Positions 765 to 28,163 of a stretch of DNA of 55,381 nucleotides are shown here, piece after piece; positions within the stretch are counted from its first letter, which is position 1, and the number at the start of each line of letters is the position of its first letter. Source of the stretch: Folioceros fuciformis (taxonomy: Eukaryota); contig JBNGIO010006379.1 of assembly GCA_049999805.1 (NCBI GenBank), positions 610,165 through 665,545 on the forward strand, read 5' to 3'. Under the pieces are notes generated by a model, which was not told the origin of the DNA, did not search any database, and worked only from the letters and a program-made list of their open reading frames with translations. The position numbers and the translations under genes are program-made.

Positions 765-1889
765 TTAAAGAGAAAGAACTTGGCAGGCACCCCTTGGCAG
801 GGGATCAGCAAACTGAATTTTCTTGGTGATGTCATCGTAGAAGGTAAGAGAAGCAGTGGGCTTGGGGGAATCATCAATCTCAACAACTGCAACTGCTGCT
901 CGGCTTGAGCCAAGCAAGGGTTGAAAACCGGCAGTGCCGACAATACACAAACGCCCACCCAAACTGACGAGCTCTGGACCCCATGAAAGCACGGGGGCAT
1001 TCTCATCCAGAACTCCCCTGATGGATTCCCAATAGTCCTTGCTGGCGTTGTACACCGAGATCTCATTTTTTCCATCAATGGAGTGAGAGTCACCCACGGC
1101 ATACAGCTTGCCGTTGAGAGCAGCTGTTTTGGACTGCCAACCTGTGTTGAGACCATTGGCCATGTCGACCCACTCGTCCACCTGCGGGTCATATACAAGG
1201 CCCACGAGGTTTTCACTGGATGAGTTCACGACATAAAACTTGCCACCCAGAACGGCACTGTCATAAAGCTCCATAGGCTCCTTCATGCTTGCAATCAATC
1301 TCCACTTGTTACTGACGGGGTCGTAGACCTCAGCCGTAGCTCCGGGGCAGTCCTTCTCGGTGGAACCGCCTACCACGTAGAGCTGATTATTCACAACGCC
1401 AGCCATACACTTGGCCCGAGGAATGTTGAGTGAAGCTGCCAAGTTCCAGCGGTAATGTTGAACGTCAAAGTAGGACACGTAATTGCAGGCTTGGCCACTG
1501 TCAAGCTGCCCCCCAATCACAAACAATTTGCCCTCCACAACCGCTGAAGCAGAGCTGAGAGCAGTCCTGTGTTCATCCGGCAGAGGAGGCAGCTCAAACC
1601 ACTTGTTCGCCTTGGGGTCGAATCCATGCCACACATTGCACGAGTCCTGCGTCCAAAGGTAGAGCCACTCCTCGGATAGCAGCAGATTTTTCCTGGCCTG
1701 ATAAAAATATTTACTTTGCAGCAGTTCTCTCCAACTCCGGCACACAGCACTGAGAGCGTAGTGGTGAGATCGAGGCACGCGAGCCAGACACAGCAGGCCC
1801 AGGTCATTCGGAAGGTCAGGAATAAGTTCCCTCCCCTCCTCCTCCTTGGCAAGCCTGGCTCTCTTCACCTTTGGCCGAACCTTGGCCAT
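765..1889 (-). CDS. F-box/kelch-repeat protein (intronless CDS)
   Basis: N-terminal F-box LIPDLPNDLGLLCLARVPR is followed by kelch repeats (LFVIGG...W, LYVVGG...AEVYDP...W). First in-frame ATG is at 1889. Confidence 0.93.
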   Translation of the reverse strand: MAKVRPKVKRARLAKEEEGRELIPDLPNDLGLLCLARVPRSHHYALSAVCRSWRELLQSKYFYQARKNLLLSEEWLYLWTQDSCNVWHGFDPKANKWFELPPLPDEHRTALSSASAVVEGKLFVIGGQLDSGQACNYVSYFDVQHYRWNLAASLNIPRAKCMAGVVNNQLYVVGGSTEKDCPGATAEVYDPVSNKWRLIASMKEPMELYDSAVLGGKFYVVNSSSENLVGLVYDPQVDEWVDMANGLNTGWQSKTAALNGKLYAVGDSHSIDGKNEISVYNASKDYWESIRGVLDENAPVLSWGPELVSLGGRLCIVGTAGFQPLLGSSRAAVAVVEIDDSPKPTASLTFYDDITKKIQFADPLPRGACQVLSL

Positions 1890-2715
1890 CCTGTGCAACG
1901 CCAGGCTCCCCCCCAGGTCCAAAGGCTGTGGTCACCGGCAAACACGGCTCCACGCGAGGGCGAAGACGAGGGCAAGGGCACGCACCTGCCAATTCGGCTT
2001 CTTATCAAGAGCAAAGGGCAACAACAAGAAGGGCGAACGCACCATTGCTCGCCGGGCGCTGCAGGAGCCACAAATTCAGCATCGGACGGCCGTGAATTGG
2101 CGACGCATGCGAGGGTCGAGGCAGGGATGAGCCCCCATGCTCAGGAGGAGGGGATGCACAATTCTGGAGGCCCACATGGCATCCACCATGCTGCAGCACG
2201 CACAAGGGACCCAGGGCGGTGCACAGCCGTGAAAAGGAGCAAGGAAGAGGCGCTGCTCTAAGCTTGCGCTCCGATGACAGAGCGCAAGGGAAAGGGAACA
2301 CGAGGCGAGGGAAAGCGAACACAAGGCAAGGGAAAGGGAAAAGAGAGGCTCACAACCGAGCACAGAAAGAAGAGGAGAGAAGAGGAGGAACAGAGAGAGA
2401 ACTACATGGGTACTGGAGACTTGGGAGTAATAACATAAAACCCCATCCGAGGACGCCCGCCCCGGGTCGGGACCATCTTCGGCTGCTTGTATAATCAAAA
2501 GTACATACTTCTGTCCATACGACAAATATAGCTACGTGAAAGCTCGCTTGAGAGCCATACATAAGAATGATGCCAAAAGGAACTGAGTTGGGAGCGGCAG
2601 ACAAGGGATAGCTTTCAACCAGGGCTACGGTATGCATGCATTCACATGCTTCTCTCGACGAGAAAGCGCTTTCAGAGTCTGTTGGGTCTGCACTACCTAC
2701 TAGCCACCAGCTCAC

Positions 2716-5590: not shown

Positions 5591-7768
5591 CTACTTACTC
5601 CTCTTCTTGCGACCCTTATTGGGCTTCTCGTCCCTTTTGCGTTTCTTCCCTAGAGGCGGCTGGACACCTCCAGCCTTGCCCAATGCTGCCGCCTTTCGGG
5701 CCAGGACGGCTGGTCGCTTCTTCTTAGGGGGCTCGGCAGAATCATCTCTTCGCCTTTTCACGCCCCTTGATGCCGCTGGCCTGGCAGTCGCCGAGCTCCA
5801 CTCTCCTGGCCTGCCCCCCTTCTGTTTGCCTGCTCGCACACCTTCATAAGGAAGAGGTCCCCTGGCTTTCTTTGACGCAGGCCCCTCCTCACTAGCACGA
5901 CTCGATTCCCAGGACCTCTTCAAGGCACTCTTCCTATGTTGGTAATGTTGCTTCTGTTTATCTATCTGTTGGGAATTGCCCAACCTGTAAATACGCAACT
6001 TGCGAGCTCTCAAGGTTACTGATCGCTTGGAAAGGGCTCGACTGGCAGCCTCCTGCACGAGGAGCACGCATCCCTACGGTTAGCAAGGAAAGTGGGACAG
6101 GACCACTACCAGTACCAGGACCAGGGTCAATATCGGATTTTCCTCACCTTTGTTTTGAAGAGGACGAAGGCAAACCCTTTGCCAATGCTGGTTTGGGGAT
6201 CTCGCACTATTCTGACGCCCTCTAACTCACTCCCAGGTACAGCAAATACGGCTATCAATTCCTCGTCCTGACACAGAGACGATATCACTTGTTTGTCGGG
6301 AACGACGGACCAAACTTGCTAGCAAATTCAAAGCAGAAGATGGGCGCATCGTAAACACGGGAAGTGACAAGAGGGGGAATCAGGCATGCATACCTCTACA
6401 TCAAATGGGAGATTTCCAACAAAGAGGCTTCGAGTCTTGTCATACTGCACAGAGTTGCCTCCTGCTTTGCTTGGAGCTGAAGCCATATCCACACGAATGT
6501 GTTTACCCTGAAACTGTAGACACATTTCAAATTGCGGACAGAAACTCCTGAGATGAAGGACACGGAGAGCATGCAGCAATGCAAAACCGCACCAAGTCTA
6601 GACCGTACATACCTCTTGCATGTTGTGAACCAGTGCACCCGTTGCACTTTCTTGCGAGGTGAATACGATATATCCGTTGAGGCTGCAAGCAATTAGGGAA
6701 CATGAAGATCAGTCACACCATCCCACTGCCAAAACTCGGCCACGAAGCTCAGCTATGTAACATACCTGCTTCGCTGCTCATTCAATTGTCCGGTGATGAC
6801 AGCAGCCCTTCTTGGGAGTTTCGTCTGGTCAAGGACGGAGGCGGACAAACCCTCAGTAAACCAATGCGACATACCCTGCAAATCAATCACACAGTGCTCA
6901 CAGAACACAGACTTACATCAACCAACGGAACACTCCGTAACCGCGCCGACTCAACTGCTCCAAACTGGGAGAACTCCGCAATCAGATCCCTTTTCTTCAC
7001 GGTGGTCGGCAAATTCCCGACAAAAATCGTCCGGAGCAATCGCTGCTGTTCCTCTTCAGCGCTTGCTCTCGCCTTCTTCTTCACGACGAGTTCATCACTC
7101 TCACCTCTCTTTCGCTTTCCTGGACTAGGAGCCTCCATATTCCCGCCAGCGACTGCAGCCTCCTCACCGAAATCCTCTTTCGTCTCCACCTGCACCGCCC
7201 CTTCGGAACGAGCATGGCGTGTCTTCCCACCTGCTTTGTTCTCCTTACCGATGGCTTCTGCACTCTCCACATTTTGGCCATTCGATAACCGTTCTGACCC
7301 TGTTGCCCCACCCTCGCTTAACTGCTCGGTCCCATCTTCCTGCTTCCGTTTCTTCTTCTTCCTCTTCTTCTCGAAGACTCCTTCACCAGCCACAACATTA
7401 CCATCCGTCTGTGCCCCTACCCCACGCTCCTCTGCCACCTTCCTCTTCCGTCTCCTAACCTCACCCGTTCTTGCCAGTCCATCCCCGGCTATAGGAGGGG
7501 TTAAAGCATCCTTGTGGTCCAACGGAAGAATTTCTTCAAGCTTCCTGTACTTCCTAGCACTATCCCCAAATGTCTCCCTGCCTTCTGCACCACTCTCGCT
7601 GCTCAGCCTCTTCGTCCTGACCCTCCTCTTCTCCTCACCCGGAGGAGCCTCCATCGGTTCCACATTCTCAGGCCGCCTCCGATACGGATTGTTCACAAAT
7701 ATAGACAGGACTCCAGGAGAGGAAACCCCGGGCGATTCCTTCTCACCCTCCACTCCTCCGGCCATCAT
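5591..7768 (-). CDS. Two-RRM nucleolar RNA-binding protein, RBM34/NOP12-like, multi-exon
   Basis: RRM1 RTIFVGNLP...FSQFGAVESARLRSVP and RRM2 RSLFVGNLPFDV...GKGFAFVLF. K/R-rich N- and C-termini, with a YEGVRA motif near the end. Confidence 0.85.
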
Positions 7769-8033
7769 TGCCACATGGTCCGCCGCAGCGCAATGGTGAG
7801 AATTCGATTCCCTCAAGATCCGAACGGGCAGAACCGCAAAAGGTATACGCAGGAACAACCCTAATTTTCAACCAGCAACAAACGGGAGAGATGAAGTCCA
7901 ACGGGTCCCGTTCCACCTTAACGGGGGCTGGGGAGGCGAAGCGGCGCGAAGGCAGGATTTGCTCAGAGTCATGCATACATGCTTTCGCGCTGATCGCTTT
8001 GTCTCCTATTAACACGAAAAACAGAAGACTACG

Positions 8034-11400: not shown

Positions 11401-11633
11401 TGCTCACTGTAGATTGCATATGTGTAGGTCAAGCCATTGCATCCCTGGAAACAGACGTATCGCAGCATGAGGTCAGATTTGGCCCATCAGGACCATGCCA
11501 GCGGCCACGAATGAGCTACATGATAGGCACCATCGGGCCTTACCATGAGAACCATAGACGCCGACAAGCATATCCATCGATCCCAATTTGGCCAAAACCT
11601 CCACTTCTTGACCTCCATGTTCTGAGAGACCAT
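8468..11633 (-). CDS. Nodulin-like / NFD4-like MFS transporter, copy A, multi-exon
   Basis: RWICLSASMVLM|GCNGLTYTYAIYSEHLK...Q.QIDDIGAAKDFG, GGGTGLAIINNFAQ, ISIWSCFGRLLAG. The last exon ends CMGSQCF...RTKKFYTQQRH* with the stop at 8468-8470. Confidence 0.88.
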
Positions 11634-12310
11634 CACAACCCCCCCGCTCTTGCAAGCTGGCGCCTTGGGCAGGTCAGTAGCGGAATTCCTGCGAGCACCA
11701 TACCCGACAGCCGCTATCTGACCCCGCAATGCATTGCCAGACGAAGAGCCTTCGGAATGGTATCGCATCACAGGGTCGACCCGCAGATCCGTGCAGCGCT
11801 GGCTTTCCCACTTGTCACGACTCGCCCACGAGTTTCCTCTCCTGTAACTTTGCTATCCTCGACTTTGCTATCTTAGCAAAGCCCCGATTAGACTCGCGTC
11901 TTATCGACACAAACTTTTCACACATTATTGAATAAAATGCTTACTATGCTTATAGGGCATTCGGAGTTCAGCACGCCTACATCAGCAACGTTCTGTAAAG
12001 CAAACCTAAAAATCTTACTCTTAACTCTGCAAAACTAAAATGTGTGTTAAGATCACTAATAGAACTAAGATTGTGTTTCAACTCTAAGCTAAGATTCCTC
12101 TAGAATTCGCCTCTGGCAAGATGCAACTGGTCGTCCTCGACATCGGCGATTCGGAGTGCCGCATCCGGCCGGAGGATGCCATGGCTCGGGCTCGTGTCTT
12201 CCTGCAGCTGGCAGGGCTCTTGAACCCGATCAAGTGAGACAGGATTGAAATGCCATTCGCCGGCAGCGGCAGCGGGGAGGGAGGTTCAGTGGGAGGAGCC
12301 TCGAGCTGAG

Positions 12311-14535
12311 ATGGAGTCTTCAAGGACGGGCTGGATGTCACTCGCGCTTCTCGCTCTCACGCTGGCTGCAGTGTCTGGGGATGAACATCTTTTCCAGCCT
12401 GTAACTTACCCTGTCGGAAACTTGACCTCCATGCCGAACTGGTTTCCGAATGAGATCGACACGAGCTTCTATCAGAATTGGATCGACCAACTGACCGTCT
12501 ACGTGAACGACTCCTTGAGTAAGCTGGTGTCGCTGCTGTTTGCAGGCCTTGCGCTTGCGTGCCATGTTGCTCGACTCGAGGGTTTCGTCGTTTCTCACCA
12601 CGCGTAGCTGCCTGTTAATGTTGCCATGGCACCAGTGTTCCTGGTGAGCGACTCCAGCCATGACGTAACCCTGGTCGGGTCAGAGGGTGAGCTGTCGGAC
12701 TGCTGGATGGCGGACGGGCGCACTCTTGCCCGGGGGCCCGTCAATTACACAGTTCCCTTCCCCGACGTTGGCGCCGTCTACTTCTTCCTCAGCTCCGGGC
12801 CAAACAGTGTAAACTCTAGCGCAGATTGCCGGAAGGGAATGCAATTTTCCTTCACCGTCTCGTCTCGGCTCGCTCCGGACGGGAACTCTGGGGGCTCCGA
12901 TTCTAATTCTCTTCCGCCGATTGCGATTGCGCATCCGGCTACGCCCGCGACGGCCCCTGCCCCTGCGCCTGGGCCTGTGCTTGTGCCTGCACCTTCGTTT
13001 CCGGCGGAGAACGCTCCCGCTCCTGGTCCTGCTCCCTCTCTTTGCCCTCTACTGTTGCTTGGTCTTTAGAAGGAGCTTCTCTCTCTGAATGAGGCGGATG
13101 GGCCTTTGGCAGGGAATGGCAACTCGAGTATGAAAACCGATCAGGGGGTGACGGGGAAGACGATTCCAGTGGCAGGTAGACCGACAGTGCTTGCCGTCCA
13201 GATTTCTTCTGCTGTTGAGTACTGAAATCTCTTGATCTGGCAACTGAACGATAGGGATTGGTTCTGATGGGTGCAGCGGTAGCATTGGCCACCACCGTCA
13301 TCTCAGTTCTTGCTCTATCTGTTCTAGGGGTGAAGCTCTGTCGGGAGCAATATGGATCTAAGCCCAGGGCCAGGTATGAAGAACGACATGTCGTACATGC
13401 TCGTTCATTCGACAATGCTGGTGAAGCCCCAGTGGTTGCCATCAATGGCATTTTGGAGGGTGGTGACGCTCGACGCTCCACAGGCATCACCTTCACCTAT
13501 GATGAGCTGAATCGAGCAACAAGCAGCTTCTCTGAAAAGAACGAGGTTGGGAAAGGAGGGTCTGGCACAGTGTTCAAAGGGACTTTGGATGATGGCAAAA
13601 CCGTGGCCATTAAAAAGCTAAAGCTGCCCTGTGGTGGGGAGCAGTTCGTACACGCGGTGGGCGTCCTCTCGCAAGTGAAACACAGGAATCTTGTCAGGCT
13701 TCTGGGCTGCTGCATCGAAGTGTCAAGTCCGTGTTTGGTGTACGAGTTCGTATCAAATGGCACTTTGCAGTATCACCTATCTCTGGCACGGTTTGGCTTC
13801 GGCACCGGGCTTGATTGGAACGCAAGGTTTAGGATTGCTCTTCAAACAGCTGAGGCACTCAAGTACTTGCATGTCCAAGCAACACCATCAATTGTCCATC
13901 GGGACGTGAAGTCGGCCAATATCCTACTAGACCACAACTTCAACGGCAAAGTGGCGGACTTTGGAATTTTCAAGCTGGTGGACTTGGAAGCCACACATGT
14001 GTCCACAACCGCGAAGGGAACTCTTGGCTATCTGGATCCGGATTATATCTACAACTGGCAGCTCACCGACAAAACAGACGTGTACAGCTATGGGGTTGTG
14101 CTACTGGAGCTGATCACGTCCAAGAAGCCCGTAGACTATTCCCAATCTGACGAGGTGGAATATCTTGCTTTGACCTCAATTCCCTTGATCAAGAGTGGGA
14201 GGGTCCGCGAAATTATTGACTCGCGTATGTTGTTCACGCTTTCACCAGAGGACTTGCATGCAGTTGAGGCAGTCGCACAGGTGAGCTGTCAGTTTTGAGC
14301 TGTGTGAGGAGCCCCTTAAGATCAGCAGAGAGCAGAAGGTGCTCAAACTAACAGTCTGTGGTGGCAGGTTGCGGTGGCATGCCTGGGGTCGTCAAGAGCC
14401 TCAAGACCGTCCATGAGTGAAGTCGTGGAAATGCTGCGAAGGATCAGGGGATCCAAGTTGAAGGCTGATGAGTTATACAGCAAGTCTGATGGTGGAAATG
14501 CTGCAGAGGCTCAGGGGATCCAAGCTGAAGGCTGA
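12311..14535 (+). CDS. Putative chimeric receptor-like kinase: signal peptide, phytocyanin (plastocyanin-like) domain, Pro/Ala AGP-like linker, TM, WAKL-type Ser/Thr kinase
   Basis: Signal peptide MESSRTGWMSLALLALTLAAVSG. Phytocyanin pattern YPVG..W..Y.NW..VNDSL|MF..HDV..C..G.VYF..C.KGMQF..V, with intron 12519-12635. TM LVLMGAAVALATTVISVLALSVLGV. Kinase motifs GKGGSG, VAIKK, HRDVKSANILLD, DFG, GTLGYLDP. The joining introns are inferred at 13026-13112 and 13148-13254. Final intron 14281-14368. Confidence 0.72.
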
Positions 14536-14693
14536 GGAGTTTTACAGCAAGTCTGATGGTGGAATGCTGCAGAGGCTCAGGGGATCCAAGCTGAAGGCTG
14601 AGGAGTTTTACAGCAAGGCTGATGGTGGAAATGCTACAAAGGATCAGGGGATCCAAGCTGGAGGATGAGGAGTTTTATAGCTAGGCTGATGAT
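14425..14693 (+). repeat. Tandem repeat, ~67-bp unit x4, overlapping the kinase 3' end
   Basis: gtggaaatgct...aggggatccaag.tg.agg.tga.gagtt.ta.agc.ag.ctgatg occurs four times. Confidence 0.92.
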
Positions 14694-15767
14694 TTCTACT
14701 GTTACACCGTATAATTGCGATACGAGGTAACGGCATCCTAGCAAGAGATTCAGGCTCAACGACCTAGGTCTTACGGTTCTCACCAGGGAAAGCGTCAAGA
14801 TCGAGCTGTGCAGGAGTCCAAGGCCCGCTTTCTCATCAAAGGTCAAGACAGCCCTCTCAGCGAGACACTCGTGCATGCAGTTCATTTGATGTGGAGCCAA
14901 AGCAGGTCGTACAGCTTCGCCTGTGGCAAGGTATGAGTCACGTTCCGCACAGGGGAAAGGGTGCAGTTCCTATGGACTTAGCACCGGCTTTTACTTCTAC
15001 GTCATTATATGGCAGTGAAATCATGGCAATAATCCTTCTTGGTTCTTTCAGCGGCGAATGAATTGAGTACTCACTCAGTTTGGCAACGTCTCTGCAACCA
15101 AGAGAGTGTACTTCTCCATGGATCCAGGGCCGACAATCAATTTTGGAAGATTACTACTGGGTCATCATACTTATAATGCGGACTACTCCGCACAAACGGA
15201 CAACGAGTTCATGATCAGTTATTTTTTATGCGTTATAACTCTTTCCGGGTGAAGAGTGAGAGTCCGGTTCACTGAACCTGGGAATGAGCACGACCACTAC
15301 AATGACGTTTCATACGTAGTGATTGGAGCTGAATAAAGTTGGTTGTTTATTGACCCACGGGGACCATGCCGAGGCGCAGGTGACGCAGTTTGCTGGATCT
15401 GGCTGGCGGCACTGTACATACATAGCTCCAGCTTAAATCACATCCAAATGTGGACGTGTACGTCTTTTCCGTCCAACTCTCCACCTACTGTACCTGCGTT
15501 CCCCGAAAGCTGACGCTTTGCATCCCCCGTGATTCCGCATACGGGCCACGTCAGGACGAATCCCGACGGAAATGCCGTTCTTCCGATTCTCCGTCTACCC
15601 CGGAGTTCCAACGGAACGGAGTTGAACTGGTGATGACGGGGCATTCCCGATCGTACCCTCCAACATTGATTGATGGCTATGGTGGATCGAGGTGCGCTCG
15701 ACTGAATCGGGATTGAACTCGATCGACGCACGCGACCTCGGGGGAGCACGCCCCTGGCCTTGCGGAA

Positions 15768-20046: not shown

Positions 20047-21525
20047 TTACTTGTTTTTGCTCGCAAGGAAGAGACCCCATTTCTGCTCTCCCCGCGCACA
20101 CCTCTTCAGTTTAGACTGCCATCCACTCACGATAGCGTTGTAGTCTTCCTCCGAGAAGTCCCGCACGAAGTCATCCTTGGTCTTGAGCGTCGCGTTCAGC
20201 TCCTTAGTGAGGACGTCCACAAATTGCTCGGTGCGGTCCTCCGCGACCACGATCTCGAAGCCTGCGTCCTGCAGCATGTGGGCATACTGCTGCACACTGT
20301 GCAGGTAATAGCCGCGCTGCTTGATGTACTGGCTGAAGCTCGCAGACGGAGTCTGTGGAGCTCGGCAATAGTCGCTGATGAGCAGCTTACCTCCGGGCTT
20401 CAACCACTTGTAAAAGTTTCGGAACAATGTGGGCTTGTCGTGGATGTGCAGGAGAGTGTCCCGGCTGTATATCACATCGAATGAGCTGTCAGGATACACC
20501 TTCTTCGTGCAATCGCAGATTTCGAACTCGACGCTGCACTGGAGACCGATGGCTCGTCCCAGCGCGATGGCGATCATGTTAACGGAGAGGTCGATGCCAA
20601 CCACCTCAACCTCGTAGGTGTTAGCCATGTAGAAGTCACCTCCGCCGATTCCGCATCCGACATCCAGAACTTTCTGCCCCTTTTGCAGGTGCAGTTTGGA
20701 CACGAACTCCTTGGTGGTTTCCAAGCCTCCAGTGCTCACGAAACCATCCCCAAAGATGCGCTCGTACCGCAGAATGCCTGTCTGCGTGTACTGCACAGTG
20801 TCCAGGAACCGCTGCGCGCTCTTCTCCTCTGGACCCGACGAGGGCACCTTGGTCCAGAGCCAACAAATCTGATTCTGATTCCGCTTGTTGCGTACGTAAG
20901 CCCCGACGCATTTGCACTGAATAAGTTGCAGCTCTGAGTAGCTGCCGTCTTCCTCCTGGATGTGGCACTCCCCGAAAAGCTTGTTGTAGAAGCTGGGATC
21001 TCGGTAATGGGTCGGGTTGCTCTTTCTCTTGTAATCTCCTGACTGGTGGTAGCAGGATTCCCGAAAAAACAAAAATCCTCCCACCTTCAGCCACGCTATC
21101 ATCTTGGAAGCCAGCTCCTCCACCTCCTCATCGGCCAGGTACATGAGCAGCCAGTTGGAGAAGACCAGATCCGCCGACGCGTTTGGGATTCCCAGATCTG
21201 AGGAGGTCACATCCTTGCACTTGAACTCCACGTTCTTGTAATGTCCATTCACTTCCTCGTTCTTCTTGATGGCGTCCTCCATGAAATCCATAGCCACAAC
21301 ATGGCCAGCAGTCTTCACAAGTTCCCCAGTGAATCTCCCAATGCCAGCTCCCAGCTCGATCACAGACTTGCCACTGAGGGGAGGCAGGAGGCCCAGAATT
21401 TCCGGCCTCTCCTCCTTGTCCAGCTGCACCGCTTGGCTGTCCAACATCATAGCCTCCACGCTCAACACTAGCGTGTGCTCCTTCCAGTAATCTTTCTGCA
21501 AGCTGCGCTCACAAGCGGGAGCCAT
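20047..21525 (-). CDS. PEAMT: Phosphoethanolamine N-methyltransferase with two methyltransferase domains; intronless CDS
   Basis: QKDYWKEH...[12 protein letters not shown]1 [38 protein letters not shown]2 [35 protein letters not shown]. The ORF is uninterrupted. Confidence 0.96.
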
Positions 21526-21914
21526 GGTGCAGGAGGCTGGACTGCGTTGCACTGCGCGGCTCGAGGCGGGGATGAAAACAAGGATTATCAGCAGGCTTGA
21601 AGTCGTGGCATTGAGGTCAGGCTCCTACAATAGCTAGCCGGGTGCGGGAGAAGCTCCTGGAGCGCTTGTTGCGAGAGCGCCCCTTCTGCTGCATCTGACG
21701 CACGAGCTCTGTGCGCCACAAATTCAGGGAAATCGCCTCTTCACTGTCTCACTTGGCCTTGTCCTGCTTGCTTGGACACTTGCATGCGCGATCGGTTCAT
21801 ATAGAATAGGTTTAGGTTTTGGCTTCTCCACTAGCTTAGCTTCCTATTGGGCTGTGGCTATGGGGTCATGACACGCACTGTTGCACCAGTTTCGAACGTA
21901 GATAGTAGGACGTT

Positions 21915-21923
21915 TTAGGGTTT
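21915..21923 (-). promoter_or_regulatory. Telo-box (AAACCCTAA) in the shared PEAMT / helicase-like divergent promoter
   Basis: TTAGGGTTT lies ~30 nt upstream of ATG 21954. Telo-boxes are typical of plant ribosome-biogenesis genes. Confidence 0.5.
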
Positions 21924-21953
21924 GGGGCGAGTCGCTGGAATGCGCAGGAGGAG

Positions 21954-23750
21954 ATGGCAAAAGGGGACGATGCCCTGCTGAAGAAGCGAAACAAAGCAGT
22001 CCGGAAGAGGGCAAGGAGGGCTGGGGCAGGCACTGCCGAATCTGTGCAAGGAACACAGGAGCATCGGCGGAGGCGGAAGCTCGGTACGCGGCGAAAATGT
22101 GAGGGGATGTGCTACACTCTGCCAACTCCCCAGGATCCCTTCAACGACACAGGGTCCAGCAAGAAGAAGAAGAGGAGAGGGAATGGCGAGGATGCCCAGC
22201 GTGCCGAAGGGATCAAGGCAACGAAGAGGAAGAGAGATGAAGAGGTGGAGGGCAAGGGGCAGGAGAAAGTTGACGAGGATGCCACGTCCAGTAAGCGGCG
22301 GAAAGTGGAACAGATGATTGAGGGGCTTCACAATTTTGTAGAAACACAGGCTGGAGGAGGGGGAAGAGGTAAGCCACAGCGAACAGATCTTGATTTGGTT
22401 GAGGATGGAGTGAAGAAAAGTCTTCTGCCTCCCGGCAATGGACACGTACCTTCGAGATTTGCGTGGCGAGCCAACGCATCTAAGCCCCCGGCTGATGCCG
22501 ACATTGGGAACTTGAAGGGGGACAAGGCTGCAGAGCTTGCATTTCAGATATCTCTGCATGGCATTTTGCCGTCAGTGAATTCGGGGGGCATTGGTGGGAA
22601 ATTAGAGAAGCAGTGTTGGAGCGCGTGCGGTAGAGGTGTTGACGTCTTGGGAGCGTTTGAGCTCGAACCGGAGAAGAGGATGTTGTGTTACGTTCCTGCC
22701 GCCGCTGCCCACATCGTGGGCCGTGGTGTGACGGCCTCCGACAAGATCCCCGTTGCAGTAATTCTGGTTGCCTCGCAGGACCGTGTGCAGCAGGTGAGGC
22801 TTGCTGCGAAGGCATTGAAGAAGTTACTGCAGATATCTTGTGTAGGATTGCACACAGGCACGGGCATTGATCGACAATTGGAAGGCCTACAAGCACAGAC
22901 ACCGCAAATGATTGTCGCAACTCCGGAAAGACTCTGTGAGCTCGTGGCTCTGGATGCTCTCAAGCTTACGGGGGTATCCTTCCTGGTCTTGGATGGTTTA
23001 GATGACTTACTGGCTCGAGGCTTCGAGTCAGAGCTCATCAGAATCGAAGCCACTGTACACTCCAGCAGGCAGATGTTTGTTCTCTGTAAGGCCTTCCCTG
23101 CCAATGTCGTCAGAACAGCTCGGCTTTTCATGAAAGACCCTGTTGTCAGAGTCACATCCTACAGCTCAACGGCTTTGCGCAGTGCTTGCATAACACAATG
23201 TGTCTCCGTGGTGATCCATGACGACAAGAAACTTGTCAAGTTTGACAAAATTCTGGAGGAAGTGAGAACTCGGCATTTGCAGTCCAGGTCCAGTCCTAGG
23301 ATGTTGGCCGTTCTGAAGCGCAGAGAGAGCGTGCCAAACCTCTTTGCTTCCATGCTGAAGGCAGGATTGAACGTCGAGGACTTAACAGCCTGTAAAGAAG
23401 GACAGGAGCTGGCAGATCTTCCGGTGGTGCAGAAGTTCCAGGAAGGCGAGGTTCATGCCCTCGTGTTGATAGAGAGCATGTTGAGCCGGTTTCCCTTGAA
23501 ATCCATCAATGTCTCCAATGTCGTCTTCTACGATTTTCCTTCCAGCTTCTCGGCGTACTGCATTGTGGTCACAGGCATGTCCAGTGAGACCATCCATGGG
23601 AGGGTATACAGCATCTGCTCTGGTGGCATGGCCCCTCTTGCGGAACAGCTAGTGGACTTGTTGCACCAATGCGCGCAGGCTGTCCCACCCGCTCTTGAAA
23701 TGCTGGTTAAAGCTGCCTCGACTGTCTTAATGGAGAAGAGCTTACAGTAG
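21954..23750 (+). CDS. DEAD-box helicase-like protein with degenerate motifs, Arabidopsis At2g28600-like; intronless
   Basis: Plant-conserved N-terminus MAKGDD.L.K.NK..RK...G.R..C.GMC.TLPT..DPFN. Motif Ib IVATPERL is present. Motif II reads VLDGLD and no GKT Walker A is visible. Confidence 0.82.
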   Translation: MAKGDDALLKKRNKAVRKRARRAGAGTAESVQGTQEHRRRRKLGTRRKCEGMCYTLPTPQDPFNDTGSSKKKKRRGNGEDAQRAEGIKATKRKRDEEVEGKGQEKVDEDATSSKRRKVEQMIEGLHNFVETQAGGGGRGKPQRTDLDLVEDGVKKSLLPPGNGHVPSRFAWRANASKPPADADIGNLKGDKAAELAFQISLHGILPSVNSGGIGGKLEKQCWSACGRGVDVLGAFELEPEKRMLCYVPAAAAHIVGRGVTASDKIPVAVILVASQDRVQQVRLAAKALKKLLQISCVGLHTGTGIDRQLEGLQAQTPQMIVATPERLCELVALDALKLTGVSFLVLDGLDDLLARGFESELIRIEATVHSSRQMFVLCKAFPANVVRTARLFMKDPVVRVTSYSSTALRSACITQCVSVVIHDDKKLVKFDKILEEVRTRHLQSRSSPRMLAVLKRRESVPNLFASMLKAGLNVEDLTACKEGQELADLPVVQKFQEGEVHALVLIESMLSRFPLKSINVSNVVFYDFPSSFSAYCIVVTGMSSETIHGRVYSICSGGMAPLAEQLVDLLHQCAQAVPPALEMLVKAASTVLMEKSLQ

Positions 23751-24692: not shown

Positions 24693-27600
24693 TCAAATAT
24701 GTGTCGTGATAAGAGCCCAGTCGTGGATGCGGCCTGCGAATCTGCCTGCGGAAGATTCTGTGTCCCCAACACAGAAGCTGTGAACCAGCCCCTCCACGTC
24801 TGTCCACCAGCTCTGGCCTGGCTGCTTCCAGGCACCAATTCCTCTCCTCCTCGCTTGTAGGTCGTGTGCTTGCCCCCACTTATCGGCGTTGGTGTATATG
24901 TTGGACATCAACACATACGCTGAGGCATCCTTGCTGTCTAGCTTCATTGCTTCTTGGAAAGCGTGGCGTCCCACCTCTACATTGCTCCACTTTCGGCAAG
25001 CATTCAAAAGGGTGTGCCAAACTGCAGCATTAGGCAGGACGGGCATTGCCCCTATCCAGGCTAGTGCCTCGTCCAGTTTTCCTGCACGGCTCATGAGGTC
25101 CACCATGCATGTGTAATGGTCAGCCGTGGGCATGATGCCATAGCGTCTGCTCATAGTGTCGAAGAAATCTCGCCCCTTGTTCACTTCGCCTGTATGACTG
25201 CATGCTGTTAGTACACTGAGGAATGTGACGCTGTCTGGCTGTATGCCATCTTTGCTCATTCTGGAAATCAAGTCAAAGACCGCTTGACTGTCTCCTTGGC
25301 GAGCGTATCCGGCGATCAGTGCATTCCAAATGACCACACCCTTTTCGGGAATTTCCTCGAACTCCTGCTGCGCGGCTGCCATGCTACCGCACTTCCCGTA
25401 CATGTGTATCAAGCTGCCCGCTATAAGCACATCGGATTGAAGCCCGTGTTCTTTGATCTGTGCATGAAGCTGCATGCCCAGATCCAAAGCGGCCACAGTT
25501 GCACATGCCTGGAGGAGGCACACGAACGTCACACAATCGGGTGTAGCCACGCCTTCCTCTTGCATGGCCCTGTACAGACTGATGGCTTCCCGCCCCATGC
25601 CTGTCTGAGAATATCCTGCGATCATGGCAGTCCATGTCACCACATTTTTCTTAGTGAGAGTGTCAAATACACCCCGAGCATCCTCTACACTGCCACACTT
25701 TGCATACATGTTTACGAGACTCCCCCCTATAACAAGATCAGACTGAAATCCTCGTTCTCGAATCTGAGTATGAATCTGCTTTCCCTTCTCCAAAGCCGAG
25801 CTGCCCACACTGGCACATGCCTGCAGCAGGCCCACAAACGTCACGGAATTGGCGGCTATGCCTTCGTCTTCCATAGCAGCATAAAGACCAAGGGCTTCCT
25901 GACCCATGCCCTGCTGAGCATATCCTGCTATCATGGAGCTCCAGGTCACCACAGTTCTTTGCCCAAGCCCGTCAAACACGGCCCGAGCATCCGTTAGATT
26001 CCCGCACTTTGCATACATGTAGACCAAACTGGTACCCACAAACACATCAGCTTGCAGTCCTTGTTCTCTGATTTGAGCGTGAAGCTGCTGTCCCTTCTCC
26101 AAAGCCAGAGAGCCCACACTTGCGCATGCCTGCAGGAGGGATGAAAATGTAATCGAGTTAGGTGCAGCCATACCCTCTTCTTGCATAGCGTCGTAAAGAC
26201 CAAGGGCTTCATGCCCCATGTTCTGCTGGGAATATCCTGCTATCATGGCATTCCACATTACGACATTCTTTTGATGAAATCCGTCAAACACGCCTCGGGC
26301 ATCCTCCAGACTGCCACACTTGGCATACATGGTTATCAGGCTCCCACTTACAATTACATCACCCTGAAGCCCGTGTTCTCTGATGCGTACATGCAGGTAC
26401 TTCCCCTTTTCCAAACCCTGAGTCCCCATGCTTGCACATGCTTGCAGGAGGGACACAAAGGTTGCAGCATCGGGTGAAGTCATACCTTCTTCCATGGCCC
26501 TGTAAAGTTTAAGGGCCTCCTGCCCCAGGCCCTTCTGGGAATATCCTGCTATCATGGCACTCCATGTCACCACATCTTTGAGAACAAGTCCGTCAAAGAC
26601 AGCCCGAGCATCCTCTAGACTGCCACACTTTGCATACATGTTCACTAGGCTCCCACCTACAATTAGAAGACCTTGCAGCCCTCGCTCTCTGATTTGTGCA
26701 TGAAGGCGTTTCCCATTCTCCAACGCCAGGGAGCCTGCACTTGCACATGCCTGCAGGAGGGACACAAATGTCACAGCGCTGGATGCAATGAGCCCTTCTT
26801 CTTGCATGGCCTTGAGAAGACGAAAAGCTTCCAGCCCCTTGCCCTGCTGGGAATACCCTGTTATCAAGGCACTCCACGTCACAACATCTTTGTGTGCAAG
26901 TCCATCAAACACGCTCCGAGCATCTTCTAGACTGCCACATTTTGCATACATGTTCACCAAGCTGCCGGTTACAAACTTATCACCTTGAAGCCTGCGTTTT
27001 CTAATTTCTACATGAAGTTCCCTCCCTTTTTCCAAAGCTGGAGGCCCCAGACGGGCACATGCTTGCAGGAGGCACATAAATGTGACAAAGTCAGGTCCAA
27101 CTATGCCTTCCTTTTGCATAACCTTGTAGAGATCAAACGCTTCCTTCCCCAGGCCCTGCTGGACATGCCCAGCTATCAAAGCATTCCAACTCACCACATT
27201 CTTGTTGTTAATTTCATTGAACTCTCTCTTAGCGGCTTCTAAGCTGCCACACTTGGCATACATATCCACCAAGGAGCTACGCACATACACATCAGGAACA
27301 ACCCCAGCAGCTAACACATCAGCATGCACCAGCTGCCCAGATTTCAAGTCCAATGCCTTCGCACAGGCCTGGAGGGCTGCGGCAAACACATGGCCATCTG
27401 GCTTCACGTCTGACCTTCGCATCCGATGATACAGTTGTATGGCCTGTTTCTCTTGACCCCGTTTAACATGCGCAGAAATTATGGTAGACCACGCGAATGC
27501 ATCTGGTTCAGCAATCTCAGTGAACACATCCACAGCTTCCTGCAACCTACCATGAGAAGAATACATCCGCAGAATATGGTTGCACAAGAACATATCAGAC

Positions 27601-28163
27601 TCAACCCCTTTCTTCAAACTGAGAGCATGGACACGGCGACACAGAGGCAGATCCTTCCGCGCCATACATTCTTTCAGGACCGTCGCAAACAGAGCCTTGG
27701 AGAAACGACGTCCTGCATGCACCATAACACCCAGAGCCTCAACGGCCTCACTGACCTCCCCCTGCTGACATAATTCTCTCACCGTTGCAGCCGTCACGTT
27801 ACTGACGACATCATCCGGCACGCTCCAGCTGGACGCAAGAGCAGGTGCGGCAGCAGGCAGCTCGGAATCCACCCCCGCCGGCTTACACCGGTCGTCGAAC
27901 CAGAGGACCTGCTTAGACTTACTGCTTCGGGCCTCCTGAGTTTGACTGCGATCTTGGAGCAATGCAGAGTCCGACGCAAACTTCTCCCACAAGAATTGCT
28001 GGTCGATGGAAGGCCCGATACCAGCCAGAACTCCAGTTGCACGGGCTGGCTCTGCAGACAAATTGCTGCACCTGGCAGCTTCGTTGTGTGCCAACATCTG
28101 CTTCCGTGAAGTCAGCTGGGCGAGAGGCCTCCCTAGCAAGCCTGTCACCCTCCACACAGCCAT
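24693..28163 (-). CDS. PLS-class PPR protein (~26 motifs), E1/E2 plus WW-type PG box (E+), no DYW catalytic core (PPR1)
   Basis: Repeating P (VVTW.AMIAGYSQ), L (TFV.LLQACA) and S (SLVNMYAKCGSLEDA) motifs, P2-L2-S2 (ACSHTG, YTCMVDL), and KQPGQSWWTD...HSF.VGD followed by a stop. Confidence 0.95.
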   Translation of the reverse strand: MAVWRVTGLLGRPLAQLTSRKQMLAHNEAARCSNLSAEPARATGVLAGIGPSIDQQFLWEKFASDSALLQDRSQTQEARSSKSKQVLWFDDRCKPAGVDSELPAAAPALASSWSVPDDVVSNVTAATVRELCQQGEVSEAVEALGVMVHAGRRFSKALFATVLKECMARKDLPLCRRVHALSLKKGVESDMFLCNHILRMYSSHGRLQEAVDVFTEIAEPDAFAWSTIISAHVKRGQEKQAIQLYHRMRRSDVKPDGHVFAAALQACAKALDLKSGQLVHADVLAAGVVPDVYVRSSLVDMYAKCGSLEAAKREFNEINNKNVVSWNALIAGHVQQGLGKEAFDLYKVMQKEGIVGPDFVTFMCLLQACARLGPPALEKGRELHVEIRKRRLQGDKFVTGSLVNMYAKCGSLEDARSVFDGLAHKDVVTWSALITGYSQQGKGLEAFRLLKAMQEEGLIASSAVTFVSLLQACASAGSLALENGKRLHAQIRERGLQGLLIVGGSLVNMYAKCGSLEDARAVFDGLVLKDVVTWSAMIAGYSQKGLGQEALKLYRAMEEGMTSPDAATFVSLLQACASMGTQGLEKGKYLHVRIREHGLQGDVIVSGSLITMYAKCGSLEDARGVFDGFHQKNVVMWNAMIAGYSQQNMGHEALGLYDAMQEEGMAAPNSITFSSLLQACASVGSLALEKGQQLHAQIREQGLQADVFVGTSLVYMYAKCGNLTDARAVFDGLGQRTVVTWSSMIAGYAQQGMGQEALGLYAAMEDEGIAANSVTFVGLLQACASVGSSALEKGKQIHTQIRERGFQSDLVIGGSLVNMYAKCGSVEDARGVFDTLTKKNVVTWTAMIAGYSQTGMGREAISLYRAMQEEGVATPDCVTFVCLLQACATVAALDLGMQLHAQIKEHGLQSDVLIAGSLIHMYGKCGSMAAAQQEFEEIPEKGVVIWNALIAGYARQGDSQAVFDLISRMSKDGIQPDSVTFLSVLTACSHTGEVNKGRDFFDTMSRRYGIMPTADHYTCMVDLMSRAGKLDEALAWIGAMPVLPNAAVWHTLLNACRKWSNVEVGRHAFQEAMKLDSKDASAYVLMSNIYTNADKWGQAHDLQARRRGIGAWKQPGQSWWTDVEGLVHSFCVGDTESSAGRFAGRIHDWALITTHI

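What the first reader, a model, noticed from the sequence alone, without database searches (positions are those of the whole stretch)
12311..14535. Receptor-like kinase with a phytocyanin/ENODL plus arabinogalactan-like ectodomain
Seen: a signal peptide, then a plastocyanin-like phytocyanin domain with the family's usual phase-1 intron after D-S-L, then a PAPAPAPGP linker. Only ~190 bp further on is a TM helix and a WAKL-type kinase that has no ectodomain of its own. GT-AG introns 13026-13112 (87 nt) and 13148-13254 (107 nt) join everything in frame through a 35-nt exon (GNGNSSMKTDQG). The domain keeps the two disulfide Cys, the first His and the Met, but has lost the copper-ligand Cys (YFFL) and second His (ADC), so it is ENODL-like. 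Known: phytocyanins are normally stand-alone GPI-anchored proteins, some ENODLs act as partners of receptor kinases, and WAK/WAKL kinases normally carry GUB_WAK/EGF ectodomains. Inference: this is a domain-shuffled receptor architecture that I do not recognise from the standard RLK classes.
Basis: partly seen in the sequence, partly recalled or inferred. Interest (0 to 1): 0.82.

Follow-up and report, generated by a model that had tools for sequence, protein, structure and literature searches.

The report
Receptor kinase with phytocyanin-like ectodomain
This land-plant gene makes one spliced mRNA for a membrane receptor kinase whose outer part is a copper-less phytocyanin (early-nodulin-like) domain, and it belongs to a small, essentially unstudied receptor family also found in a liverwort and in ferns.

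Summary
Spliced contigs of a public run join all parts with GT..AG introns at 12519-12635, 13026-13112, 13176-13276 and 14281-14367. The frame stays open, giving a 610-aa protein.

Its order is signal peptide, one phytocyanin-like domain, Pro/Ala-rich stalk, TM helix, then a WAK-clade kinase.

The ectodomain gets no Pfam hit exon by exon. It aligns with the first Cu_bind_like domain of three proteins found only through their kinase: Adiantum 60 and 57 bits, Calypogeia 35 bits, against at most 25.4 bits in 200 shuffles. A profile of these hits only the five solved plant phytocyanins in the PDB. The ligand Cys is Leu and the second His is Asp, so it is ENODL-like.

The kinases of the window gene and these relatives form a clade (99/96) inside WAK/WAKL (100/99).

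So this is a conserved non-seed-plant family, not a one-off shuffle. In print I found only a one-line listing in the metaRLK preprint. The window copy has one domain instead of two, Ala at the alphaC-helix Glu position, and a tail cut short by a 67-nt repeat. Function is inferred.

The parts
12311..12518 (+). Coding exon 1: start codon, signal-peptide-like leader (residues 1 to about 22, 12311-12376), and the first strands of the phytocyanin-like domain up to D-S-L. It ends in phase 1.
   Evidence: Joint 12518->12636 in an X1 contig. Aligns with the N-terminal part of domain 1 of P0042, P0050 and P0052.
12519..12635 (+). Intron 1 (117 nt, GT..AG, phase 1) inside the phytocyanin-like domain.
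   Evidence: table 5. One X1 contig (record 3, 12489-12665) also runs unspliced across it. A conserved phase-1 intron in the plastocyanin-like domain of most phytocyanin genes is reported in PMC4499708 (passages read).
12636..13025 (+). Coding exon 2: the rest of the phytocyanin-like domain (to about 12865), then a Pro/Ala/Ser/Thr-rich AGP-like stalk (about 12866-13025).
   Evidence: BLASTP to domain 1 of relatives. Profile A1 hits phytocyanins only. X1 contig record 4 covers 12636-13024.
13026..13112 (+). If read through, the frame stops at 13067-13069.
   Evidence: table 5 (skips 87, cut +1). for the read-through stop.
13113..13175 (+). Coding exon 3 (63 nt): a short polar segment with an N-x-S site, and the start of the TM helix.
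   Evidence: 60 letters of contig record 4 lie between the two joints. for the translation.
13176..13276 (+). Intron 3 (101 nt, GT..AG).
   Evidence: table 5 (13171->13273, skips 101, cut +4).
13277..14280 (+). Coding exon 4: the rest of the TM helix (to about 13332), the juxtamembrane segment, and most of the kinase domain. It holds the G-loop, VAIK Lys, HRD and DFG. Ala at 13654-13656 stands where the alphaC-helix Glu normally is.
   Evidence: Pkinase E 5.8e-40. Motifs. Column analysis: E in 114 of 117 relatives, A in the window. X1 contigs records 4 and 5.
14281..14367 (+). Intron 4 (87 nt, GT..AG, phase 0).
   Evidence: table 5 (14277->14365, cut +3)..
14368..14535 (+). Coding exon 5: the last kinase subdomain (R-P-S-M), the conserved C-terminal E-M-L-x-R-I motif, and the stop at 14533-14535.
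   Evidence: collinear with P0042, P0050 and P0052.
14425..14691 (+). Tandem repeat, 67 nt x 4, 92% matches. The first copy encodes the conserved C-terminal motif. Later copies are out of frame, so the tail is short and the repeat runs on past the stop.
   Evidence: Alignment of tails. ORFs.

Best explanation
Window 12311-14535 (+) is one five-exon gene for a 610-aa type-I membrane receptor kinase. From the N-terminus it has a cleavable signal peptide, then a single phytocyanin (plastocyanin-like, cupredoxin) domain. That domain keeps the family's disulfide pair, first His and axial Met, but has Leu for the copper-ligand Cys and Asp for the second His. This makes it ENODL-type and it should not form a blue-copper site. 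Next come a Pro/Ala/Ser/Thr-rich stalk with AG-type glycomodules, one TM helix, and an RD kinase of the WAK/WAKL clade.

The gene belongs to a conserved clade of phytocyanin-ectodomain RLKs shared with a liverwort and ferns. Those relatives carry two such domains, so the window gene has most likely lost the second.

Inferred mechanism: the copper-less phytocyanin domain, held out from the membrane on a glycosylated stalk, acts as a binding module for a cell-wall or cell-surface ligand rather than as a redox centre. Occupancy would be relayed through the TM helix to the WAK-type kinase. This would be a covalent version of the ENODL-plus-receptor-kinase pairing known from ENODL14/15 and FERONIA.

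Because the alphaC-helix Glu is Ala here, the kinase may be weak. It may signal partly as a scaffold or through a partner kinase.

Shown: gene structure, splicing, domain homology, clade membership. Inferred: glycosylation, ligand binding, absence of copper binding, signalling.
For: Splicing:
- Four GT..AG joints were seen in contigs of run X1.
- One 1047-nt contig carries exon 2 (12636-13024), 60 nt of exon 3 and 13273-13870 of exon 4, so ectodomain and kinase exons are joined in processed RNA.
- All 10 of 10 laid X1 contigs are at least 99% alike, with no other letters.
- The spliced frame is open for 610 aa.

Kinase:
- Pkinase E 5.8e-40.
- G-loop, VAIK, HRD and DFG are present.

Relatives:
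- Of the 120 hits listed for the kinase exon (1245 at E<=1e-30 among 8000 scored), 3 carry PF02298 together with kinase domains.
- A rescan gives Cu_bind_like E 8.7e-19, 3.5e-21 and 2.3e-19, with two stretches each.

Ectodomain homology:
- The window domain (residues 24-148) against these proteins scores 59.7 bits (4e-15), 57.0 bits (3e-14) and 35.4 bits (1e-6). In 200 shuffles the maximum is 25.4 bits.
- The full-length alignment is collinear except for the missing second domain.
- Profile A1 against the PDB gives 5 hits at E<=10, and all 5 are plant phytocyanins: umecyanin 5.2e-10, stellacyanin 4.4e-9, mavicyanin 7.7e-9, cucumber basic protein 1.1e-4, plantacyanin 0.15.
- ESM-Atlas feature search of exon 2 alone: ranks 2 and 3 are streptophyte Cu_bind_like clusters at 0.85 and 0.84. 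These are leads only.

Kinase tree (39 rows, careful):
- Window + Calypogeia + Adiantum form a clade at 99/96, inside WAK/WAKL at 100/99.

Gene structure and literature:
- The phase-1 intron inside the domain matches the phase reported for phytocyanin genes (PMC4499708, passages).
- ENODL14/15 bind FERONIA, as stated in the review PMC6726743 (passages).
Against: - The window's own ectodomain gets no Pfam hit when exons 1 and 2 are scanned separately at E<=10.
- Exon 2 alone finds no phytocyanin in the PDB.
- Exon 2 alone finds no true relative among 1.84 billion representatives. All 8 hits are chance matches to repeat proteins.
- The spliced protein could not be sent to Pfam or to the folding tool.
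- The AlphaFold model of the exon-2 part is poor (pLDDT 64.5). Foldseek gives no match at E<=0.001. Phytocyanins lead, but only at E 0.1-0.2.
- Contigs cannot prove that exon 1 and exon 5 sit on the same molecule, nor exclude a minor kinase-only or ectodomain-only transcript. One contig runs unspliced over intron 1.
- The run is only guessed to be RNA by the tool.
- The alphaC Glu is Ala (E in 114 of 117 relatives), the tail is cut by an out-of-frame repeat, and the second domain is missing. These could be signs of relaxed constraint.
- No ligand, glycosylation, localisation or activity was tested.
- The family's range rests on 3 proteins from 2 genera. A search with the Adiantum ectodomain found only the two Adiantum proteins.
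Confidence: 0.7

Rival explanations
1. There are two genes: a stand-alone, possibly GPI-anchored ENODL-like arabinogalactan protein ending at the stop at 13067-13069, and a separate membrane-anchored kinase starting at the ATG near 13267. On this reading the fused mRNA is a minor read-through product.
For: Read-through of intron 2 gives a stop at 13067-13069 after a short hydrophobic tail, and an in-frame ATG lies just before the TM segment. Phytocyanins are normally stand-alone and GPI-anchored (PMC6726743, passages). Contigs cannot exclude rare isoforms.
Against: The X1 contig joins exon 2 to exon 3 to exon 4 through two exact GT..AG joints, and the ATG near 13267 lies inside intron 3, which is spliced out. 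The depth figures of the bins over introns 2 and 3 equal what the spliced contig alone would give (my arithmetic, table 2). The same collinear fusion is annotated in Calypogeia and Adiantum. The hydrophobic tail is only 9 residues, short for a GPI signal (recalled criterion, not tested).
Confidence: 0.04
2. The ectodomain is still a metal site. The retained His and axial Met, plus the Asp that replaced the second His (and a Met at the Cys position in the relatives), could bind copper or another metal in a non-blue site. The protein would then be a metal- or redox-sensing receptor kinase.
For: His and Met are conserved in the window and in all three relatives. The position of the second His is Asp in all four. 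The Cys position is Met in the three relatives. The metaRLK preprint speculates that Cu_bind_like ectodomains might sense metal (section 7).
Against: The thiolate Cys that defines type-1 copper sites is absent. In the window it is Leu, which cannot ligate. The ligand loop carries a 9-11-residue insertion relative to stellacyanin (alignment). ENODLs lacking these ligands are held not to bind copper (PMC4499708, passages).
Confidence: 0.1
3. This is a decaying or pseudokinase copy. In this lineage the gene lost its second phytocyanin domain, its alphaC Glu and part of its tail. It is transcribed but no longer works as an active receptor kinase; at most it would be a decoy or scaffold.
For: Ala stands where 114 of 117 related kinases, and all 3 close relatives, have Glu. 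The 67-nt x 4 repeat shifts the frame after the conserved tail motif. There is one domain instead of two. Its end branch is long (0.48) compared with 0.07-0.16 for P0042, P0050 and P0052. Two upstream ORFs lie in the leader.
Against: The 610-codon frame is intact across five exons and is correctly spliced. Lys of VAIK, Asp of HRD, Asp of DFG and 20 of the 22 columns listed (those at 98% or more, plus those at 90% or more where the window differs) are kept. Both disulfide Cys, the His and the Met of the ectodomain are kept.
Confidence: 0.15

Closest known systems
Unnamed Cu_bind_like + TM + kinase proteins of Calypogeia fissa (CAM6096037.1 = P0042), Adiantum nelumboides (MCO5591003.1 = P0052) and Adiantum capillus-veneris (KAI5062963.1 = P0050)
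   Same: Same order of parts: leader, phytocyanin-like domain with H/M/D/M-type degenerate ligand positions and both Cys, Pro-rich linker, TM, WAK-clade kinase, E-M-L-x-R-I tail. Kinase 56-62% identical. Same clade at 99/96. Domain 1 scores 35-60 bits.
   Different: They carry a second phytocyanin-like domain between the linker and the TM, which the window gene lacks. They keep the alphaC Glu and have longer tails. P0050 is a gene model with an unrelated N-terminal extension. None has a name or a described function.
Early nodulin-like proteins (ENODLs), the copper-less subfamily of phytocyanins and phytocyanin-like AGPs, e.g. Arabidopsis ENODL14/15
   Same: Plastocyanin-like domain with incomplete copper ligands, a disulfide pair, a signal peptide, a following AGP-like Pro-rich region, and a phase-1 intron in the domain. 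ENODL14/15 work with a receptor kinase, FERONIA (PMC6726743).
   Different: ENODLs are stand-alone and mostly GPI-anchored. Here the domain is fused in cis to a TM helix and a kinase. Sequence similarity to canonical phytocyanins is too low for a Pfam hit on the separate exons. There is a long insertion in the former ligand loop.
Wall-associated kinases and WAK-like kinases (RLK/Pelle WAK, WAK_LRK10L, WAKL20-type)
   Same: The kinase domain nests in the clade that holds Marchantia WAK_LRK10L-8, moss and Selaginella WAKs, WAKL20-type and angiosperm WAKs (100/99). Identity is about 50-54%. It is a single-pass type-I RLK.
   Different: No GUB_WAK_bind, WAK_assoc or EGF domain was found. The ectodomain is phytocyanin-like instead. 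It forms its own subclade.
PK-like chimeric arabinogalactan proteins and PERK-type RLKs (Ma et al. 2017, PMC5266747)
   Same: Receptor kinases with a Pro-rich, AG/extensin-like extracellular region. 449 such 'PK' chimeric AGPs in 46 of 47 species are listed in that paper (passages and Table 6 read).
   Different: Those are described as a Pro-rich ectodomain plus kinase, and phytocyanin-like AGPs are a separate class there. A protein combining both classes is not mentioned in the passages I read. The supplementary tables could not be seen.
Ephrins (animal membrane-tethered ligands of Eph receptor kinases)
   Same: Foldseek places ephrin ectodomains among the top matches of the partial model, interleaved with the phytocyanins (ranks 2, 4, 6; TM 0.48-0.59). 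From recall, ephrins have a copper-less cupredoxin-like fold used purely for protein binding at the cell surface.
   Different: No sequence relationship was shown. The model is of low confidence and E is 0.1-0.3. Ephrins are ligands without a kinase. This is an analogy only.

Membership tests
Phytocyanin / plastocyanin-like domain (Pfam PF02298 Cu_bind_like) | Match to the Pfam model above its gathering score | tested here: inconclusive
   Exon 1 (69 aa) and exon 2 (143 aa) scanned separately: 0 families at E<=10. The domain is split by intron 1, and the spliced protein could not be handed to the tool.
Phytocyanin / plastocyanin-like domain (Pfam PF02298 Cu_bind_like) | Significant homology to domains that do match PF02298 | tested here: met
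   59.7, 57.0 and 35.4 bits to domain 1 of P0050, P0052 and P0042, against a maximum of 25.4 bits in 200 shuffles. Those proteins match Cu_bind_like at E 2.3e-19, 3.5e-21 and 8.7e-19. In P0042 the best stretch is domain 1 itself (43-124).
Phytocyanin / plastocyanin-like domain (Pfam PF02298 Cu_bind_like) | Profile similarity to solved phytocyanins | tested here: met
   Profile A1 (2 window rows + 3 relatives): 5 of 5 PDB hits at E<=10 are plant phytocyanins, the best at 5.2e-10. The profile is dominated by the relatives.
Phytocyanin / plastocyanin-like domain (Pfam PF02298 Cu_bind_like) | Eight-stranded cupredoxin beta-sandwich | tested here: inconclusive
   Only the exon-2 part (78 aa) could be folded: pLDDT 64.5. 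Foldseek gave no hit at E<=0.001. All five phytocyanin structures are in the top 10 (prob 0.92-0.97, TMq 0.54-0.58).
Phytocyanin / plastocyanin-like domain (Pfam PF02298 Cu_bind_like) | Two conserved disulfide-forming Cys | tested here: met
   Cys after E-L-S-D and Cys in A-D-C align with the Cys of the relatives and of stellacyanin.
Blue-copper phytocyanins (uclacyanin, stellacyanin, plantacyanin) | Four copper ligands: His, Cys, His, Met/Gln | tested here: not met
   His kept, Cys replaced by Leu, second His replaced by Asp, Met kept. It is therefore not filed as a blue copper protein. It falls in the ENODL-type (ligand-deficient) class as that class is defined in PMC4499708.
ENODL / phytocyanin-like AGP | Stand-alone secreted or GPI-anchored protein | tested here: not met
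   Exon 2 is spliced on to the TM and kinase exons. The domain is ENODL-like, but the protein is not an ENODL.
ENODL / phytocyanin-like AGP | Conserved phase-1 intron within the plastocyanin-like domain | tested here: met
   Intron 1 is phase 1 and lies inside the domain. The phase is reported in PMC4499708. The exact conserved position is in its Figure S1, which I could not see.
ENODL / phytocyanin-like AGP | AG glycomodules that are hydroxylated and O-glycosylated | not testable with these tools
   Sequence criteria only: 61% PAST and 8 [AST]P in the 54-aa stalk.
RLK/Pelle receptor kinase, WAK/WAKL clade | Protein kinase domain grouping with WAK/WAKL kinases | tested here: met
   Pkinase 5.8e-40. 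WAK/WAKL clade at 100/99 in a 39-row tree.
RLK/Pelle receptor kinase, WAK/WAKL clade | GUB_WAK_bind and/or EGF-like ectodomain | tested here: not met
   No such Pfam family in exons 1-2 at E<=10. By kinase it belongs to the clade; by ectodomain it is not a WAK.
RLK/Pelle receptor kinase, WAK/WAKL clade | Catalytic residues of an active kinase | tested here: inconclusive
   G-loop, VAIK Lys, HRD and DFG are present. The alphaC Glu is Ala, where 114 of 117 relatives have Glu. Activity was not assayed.
Phytocyanin-ectodomain RLK clade (Calypogeia and Adiantum proteins) | Collinear architecture and monophyletic kinase | tested here: met
   Full-length alignment. Clade at 99/96. Difference: one phytocyanin-like domain instead of two.

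The most novel reading that the evidence does not exclude
Phytocyanin-ectodomain receptor kinases are an old, functional receptor class of non-seed land plants in which an ENODL-type module is fused to a WAK-type kinase. The fusion would have arisen at or before the split of liverworts and ferns, and the family would be missing from seed plants. On this reading the family is a natural 'hard-wired' form of the ENODL-receptor-kinase partnership. It would offer a direct route to what copper-less phytocyanin domains bind, which is still unknown for ENODLs. A bolder sub-case is that the remodelled His/Asp/Met site makes it a metal or redox sensor.
Probability: 0.4. Interest if true: 0.72.

Novelty: new variant of a known kind. 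Interest (0 to 1): 0.55.

Why it matters
ENODLs are numerous in land plants, and some are needed for pollen-tube reception together with FERONIA. What the copper-less phytocyanin fold actually binds is not known.

A conserved lineage in which this fold is the ectodomain of a receptor kinase argues that it is a genuine perception module. It also gives a system in which ligand binding has a direct read-out, namely kinase signalling.

The finding adds an ectodomain type to the WAK clade that standard RLK classifications do not list. It suggests a non-seed-plant receptor family that seed plants may have lost.

In addition, the finding shows that the fused reading is supported by spliced RNA-derived contigs and not only by gene prediction.

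Tried and rejected
**Searches and scans that gave nothing useful**
- Pfam on the single exons 1, 2 and 5 found nothing.
- Exon 2 against 5.8 billion proteins with lengths 'longer': none at E<=0.01 among 3371 candidates.
- Exon 2 by phmmer against 1.84 billion representatives: 8 hits at E<=0.001, none a phytocyanin.
  - P0121, P0123, P0124, P0126 and P0127 are WD40 proteins by Pfam.
  - P0125 is a META-domain protein.
  - P0122 is a repeat protein with only a weak DUF6680 match.
  - P0128 was not scanned, but by eye it is a WD40-type repeat.
  - The matches come from a chance D-G-R-T-L-A motif summed over repeats. The same artefact appears in the PDB search.
- Ectodomain of P0052 (residues 25-300) against the 5.8 billion: only itself and P0050. 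The family's range could therefore not be widened.

**Sequencing runs and genome**
- No RNA holder is listed for the stretch.
- Runs X2 and X3 laid nothing.
- The parts without cover at 11902-12035 and 15386-15500 say nothing about transcript ends. I do not place a TSS or a poly(A) site.
- No whole genome is held for this window. There is no paralogue inside the window (tblastn).
- Earlier-findings look-ups by place and by words found nothing.

**Structure**
- Only the exon-2 part could be folded. The model is poor and Foldseek is not significant.

**Readings considered and rejected**
- I considered single-intron joins from exon 2 to the kinase frame. There are 6 possible GT..AG pairs, and none was seen.
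- The stand-alone GPI-anchored reading was rejected as the main product (see the rival explanations).

**Literature searches with no relevant paper**
- 'plastocyanin-like domain' + 'receptor-like kinase' + 'ectodomain': 0 papers.
- 'plastocyanin-like' + RLK + Pkinase + extracellular: 0 papers.
- cupredoxin + 'receptor kinase' + 'land plants': 5 papers, none on this by title or abstract.
- phytocyanin + 'kinase domain' + fern + liverwort (at least 3 of 4 terms): 131 papers, 15 listed, none on this.
- RLK, charophyte and bryophyte domain-architecture terms: 10 papers, 9 listed, none on this by title or abstract.

Full report
**What is in the sequence**

Window 12311-14535 (+) holds an ATG-initiated reading frame broken by short introns. 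The region is about 54% G+C in a gene-dense window.

The neighbours are land-plant genes:
- three long intronless PLS-type PPR reading frames with E motifs
- two F-box proteins (one with Kelch repeats, one with a KIB1-4-type beta-propeller)
- an ATG22-like transporter
- a double methyltransferase
- a DEAD-box helicase

No genome is held for the window. I did not determine the species.

**Transcript evidence**

One public run, X1, holds 82% of the sampled words of 12250-14750. Laid on 11500-15500, 10 of 10 of its contigs are at least 99% alike, with no differing letters. They show four joints, all GT..AG:
- 12518->12636, skipping 117 nt
- 13024->13112, skipping 87 nt, cut +1
- 13171->13273, skipping 101 nt, cut +4
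- 14277->14365, skipping 87 nt, cut +3

One 1047-nt contig carries exon 2 (12636-13024), then 60 letters of exon 3, then 13273-13870. This physically links the ectodomain exon to the TM and kinase exon through two spliced junctions.

The tool only guesses that the run is RNA. Exact intron removal shows that it contains processed transcripts.

The introns are therefore 12519-12635, 13026-13112, 13176-13276 and 14281-14367. Its third (13148-13254) was wrong: exon 3 is 13113-13175 (63 nt) and exon 4 begins at 13277, inside the TM helix. The frame is kept and the spliced product is 610 aa.

One contig also runs unspliced across intron 1. Contigs cannot show that exon 1 and exon 5 are on one molecule, nor where transcripts begin and end.

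**The kinase**

- Exon 4 matches Pkinase at E 5.8e-40.
- It has the G-loop, VAIK, HRD and DFG.
- In an alignment of the window kinase with 119 of the 120 listed hits, nearly all invariant columns are kept. One hit, P0036, was dropped because its best alignment was shorter than 220 residues.
- The exception is the alphaC-helix Glu, which is Ala here (codon 13654-13656). It is Glu in 114 of 117 rows and in all three close relatives.
- By the Lys/Asp/Asp triad the kinase counts as active. Loss of the Lys-Glu bridge partner makes weak or atypical activity plausible.

**Is the ectodomain a phytocyanin?**

The window alone does not settle it:
- Exons 1 and 2 scanned separately give no Pfam family at E<=10.
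- Exon 2 alone gives no phytocyanin in the PDB.
- Against 1.84 billion representatives, exon 2 returns only 8 chance hits to WD40, META and repeat proteins, through a D-G-R-T-L-A motif.
- I could not submit the spliced protein to these tools.

The answer came through the kinase. Among the 120 hits listed for the kinase exon (1245 at E<=1e-30 among 8000 scored candidates), three carry PF02298 together with kinase domains:
- P0042, Calypogeia fissa
- P0052, Adiantum nelumboides
- P0050, Adiantum capillus-veneris

Rescanned, they match Cu_bind_like at 8.7e-19, 3.5e-21 and 2.3e-19, with two stretches each. They therefore have two phytocyanin-like domains before the TM helix.

These proteins were picked without reference to the ectodomain. 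Even so, the window's spliced ectodomain aligns with their first domain. For residues 24-148 only, the scores are 59.7 bits (4e-15), 57.0 bits (3e-14) and 35.4 bits (1e-6). The maximum in 200 composition-preserving shuffles is 25.4 bits (with the linker included).

A profile of the two window exon rows plus the three first domains (A1) finds exactly five PDB sequences at E<=10. All five are plant phytocyanins:
- umecyanin, 5.2e-10
- stellacyanin, 4.4e-9
- mavicyanin, 7.7e-9
- cucumber basic protein, 1.1e-4
- plantacyanin, 0.15

Weaker, consistent leads:
- The ESM-Atlas feature search of exon 2 alone puts streptophyte Cu_bind_like clusters at ranks 2-3, with scores 0.85 and 0.84.
- A low-confidence model of the exon-2 part (pLDDT 64.5) has all five phytocyanin structures in its Foldseek top 10. 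These sit at prob 0.92-0.97 but only E 0.1-0.2, interleaved with ephrins.

**Ligands**

In the alignments to umecyanin and stellacyanin and to the relatives:
- The first His is kept.
- The Cys ligand is Leu in the window and Met in the three relatives.
- The second His is Asp in all four.
- The axial Met is kept.
- Both disulfide Cys are kept.
- The former ligand loop carries a 9-11-residue insertion.

This fits the ENODL-type, ligand-deficient class as defined in PMC4499708 (passages read). The same paper reports a conserved phase-1 intron in the plastocyanin-like domain of most phytocyanin genes. Intron 1 here is phase 1 and lies inside the domain. Whether the position is identical is in a supplementary figure that I could not see.

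The stalk is 61% P/A/S/T, with eight [AST]P dipeptides in 54 residues. The ectodomain has five N-x-S/T sites. Glycosylation is inferred.

**Family**

The full-length alignment of the window protein with P0042, P0052 and the C-terminal part of P0050 is collinear. The shared order is leader, domain 1, Pro-rich linker, pre-TM motif, TM, juxtamembrane segment, kinase and the E-M-L-x-R-I tail. The window simply lacks the second domain. Introns 2 and 3 are too short to hide it.

By bit score, the three Cu_bind_like proteins are the window kinase's best matches: 335, 331 and 327 bits, at 56-62% identity.

I built a tree from 39 rows. These were the window plus 38 hits that I chose by hand:
- the Cu_bind_like proteins and a Calypogeia double-kinase model
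- bryophyte, lycophyte and angiosperm WAK and WAKL20-type kinases
- ten other RLK classes
- the S-domain kinases P0040 and P0041 as outgroup

The remaining 81 hits were left out. They are mostly near-duplicate angiosperm WAKL20-like rows.

The tree puts the window, Calypogeia and Adiantum in one clade, at SH-aLRT 96 in the quick run and at UFBoot 99 / SH-aLRT 96 in the careful run. That clade lies inside a WAK/WAKL clade supported at 100/99. The window branch is sister to liverwort plus fern, with weak support (93/62).

A single old fusion is the simplest reading, followed by loss of the second domain in the window's lineage. The sample is three proteins from two genera, however. A word-index search with the Adiantum ectodomain found no more.

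In Calypogeia, several related kinase models carry neighbouring accession numbers on one 2.2-Mb contig, which suggests a tandem array.

**What is in print**

- Full-text search for Cu_bind_like with RLK gave 3 papers.
- Only the metaRLK preprint (10.1101/2023.12.21.572927) is relevant. [quoted passage not shown] It gives no counts, taxa or analysis in the text.
- Ma et al. 2017 (PMC5266747, passages) treat phytocyanin-like AGPs and kinase-bearing AGPs as separate classes.
- The ten-species phytocyanin survey PMC4499708 does not contain the word kinase.
- Other searches returned nothing on this architecture.
- ENODL14/15 interacting with FERONIA is taken from the review PMC6726743 (passages).

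**Interpretation**

The best-supported reading is a type-I receptor kinase of the WAK clade whose sensing part is a copper-less phytocyanin domain on an AGP-like stalk. I infer that the domain is a binding module for a wall or surface ligand, and that the fusion is a cis version of the ENODL-receptor-kinase partnership.

The rivals are:
- two separate genes, about 0.04, contradicted by the spliced contig and the conserved architecture
- a remodelled metal site, about 0.1
- a decaying or pseudokinase copy, about 0.15, suggested by the alphaC Ala, the lost domain and the tail truncated by a 67-nt x 4 out-of-frame repeat

**Verdict**

The architecture lies outside the standard RLK classes. It is a member of a conserved but practically undescribed family, not a unique shuffle. 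I rate it a new variant of a known kind, with moderate interest.

Noticed in passing
window 14425-14691: Tandem repeat of 67 nt x 4 (92% matches) over the end of the coding region and the start of the 3' UTR. The period is not a multiple of 3. Only the first copy encodes the conserved C-terminal motif; the next copies shift the frame to an early stop at 14533-14535. Another frame (14462-14668) still reads two more copies of the motif.
   Followed up: partly
window 13654-13656: The GCG (Ala) codon stands where the kinase alphaC-helix Glu is found in 114 of 117 related RLKs and in all three phytocyanin-RLK relatives. A single base separates it from GAG.
   Followed up: partly
window 12121-12237 and 12250-12309: Two short upstream ORFs (38 and 19 codons) lie just ahead of the main ATG at 12311. 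The second ends two bases before it. An X1 contig (12077-12518) covers both.
   Followed up: no
window 24696-28178 (-), 30318-33770 (+), 42318-45401 (+): Three long uninterrupted reading frames (1028-1161 aa) of PLS-type pentatricopeptide-repeat proteins. Two have E motifs, typical of organelle RNA-editing factors of land plants.
   Followed up: no
window 768-1931 (-), 39318-40460 (-), 34508-35929 (-), 20050-21624 (-), 21909-23747 (+): Other neighbours by Pfam: an F-box/Kelch protein, an F-box protein with a KIB1-4 beta-propeller, an ATG22-like vacuolar effluxer, a protein with two methyltransferase domains, and a DEAD-box helicase fragment. The long frames 6681-7796 (+) and 35000-35998 (+) gave no family.
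   Followed up: no
window 12690-12720 (exon 2): A short motif of the D-G-R-T-L-A-x-G type mimics the WD40 repeat signature. Summed over many repeats, it produces 'significant' false hits to bacterial WD40 proteins and to THOC3 in HMMER searches.
   Followed up: yes
window 11543-11809: An 891-nt X1 contig covers this stretch upstream of the gene and carries a loose end before 11543. This suggests another spliced transcript whose further exons lie upstream of 11500.
   Followed up: no
P0001, P0129, P0130, P0131 (Calypogeia fissa, one 2.2-Mb contig): Several closely related kinase models with neighbouring accession numbers. P0001 contains two kinase domains and no ectodomain, so it is probably a merged or partial model within a tandem array of this family.
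   Followed up: no
model m287d8f49a2b2 (window 12638-12871): Ephrin ectodomains appear between the phytocyanins in the Foldseek list (E 0.1-0.3). The model is of low confidence, but the shared copper-less cupredoxin-like surface-signalling fold is a notable analogy.
   Followed up: no
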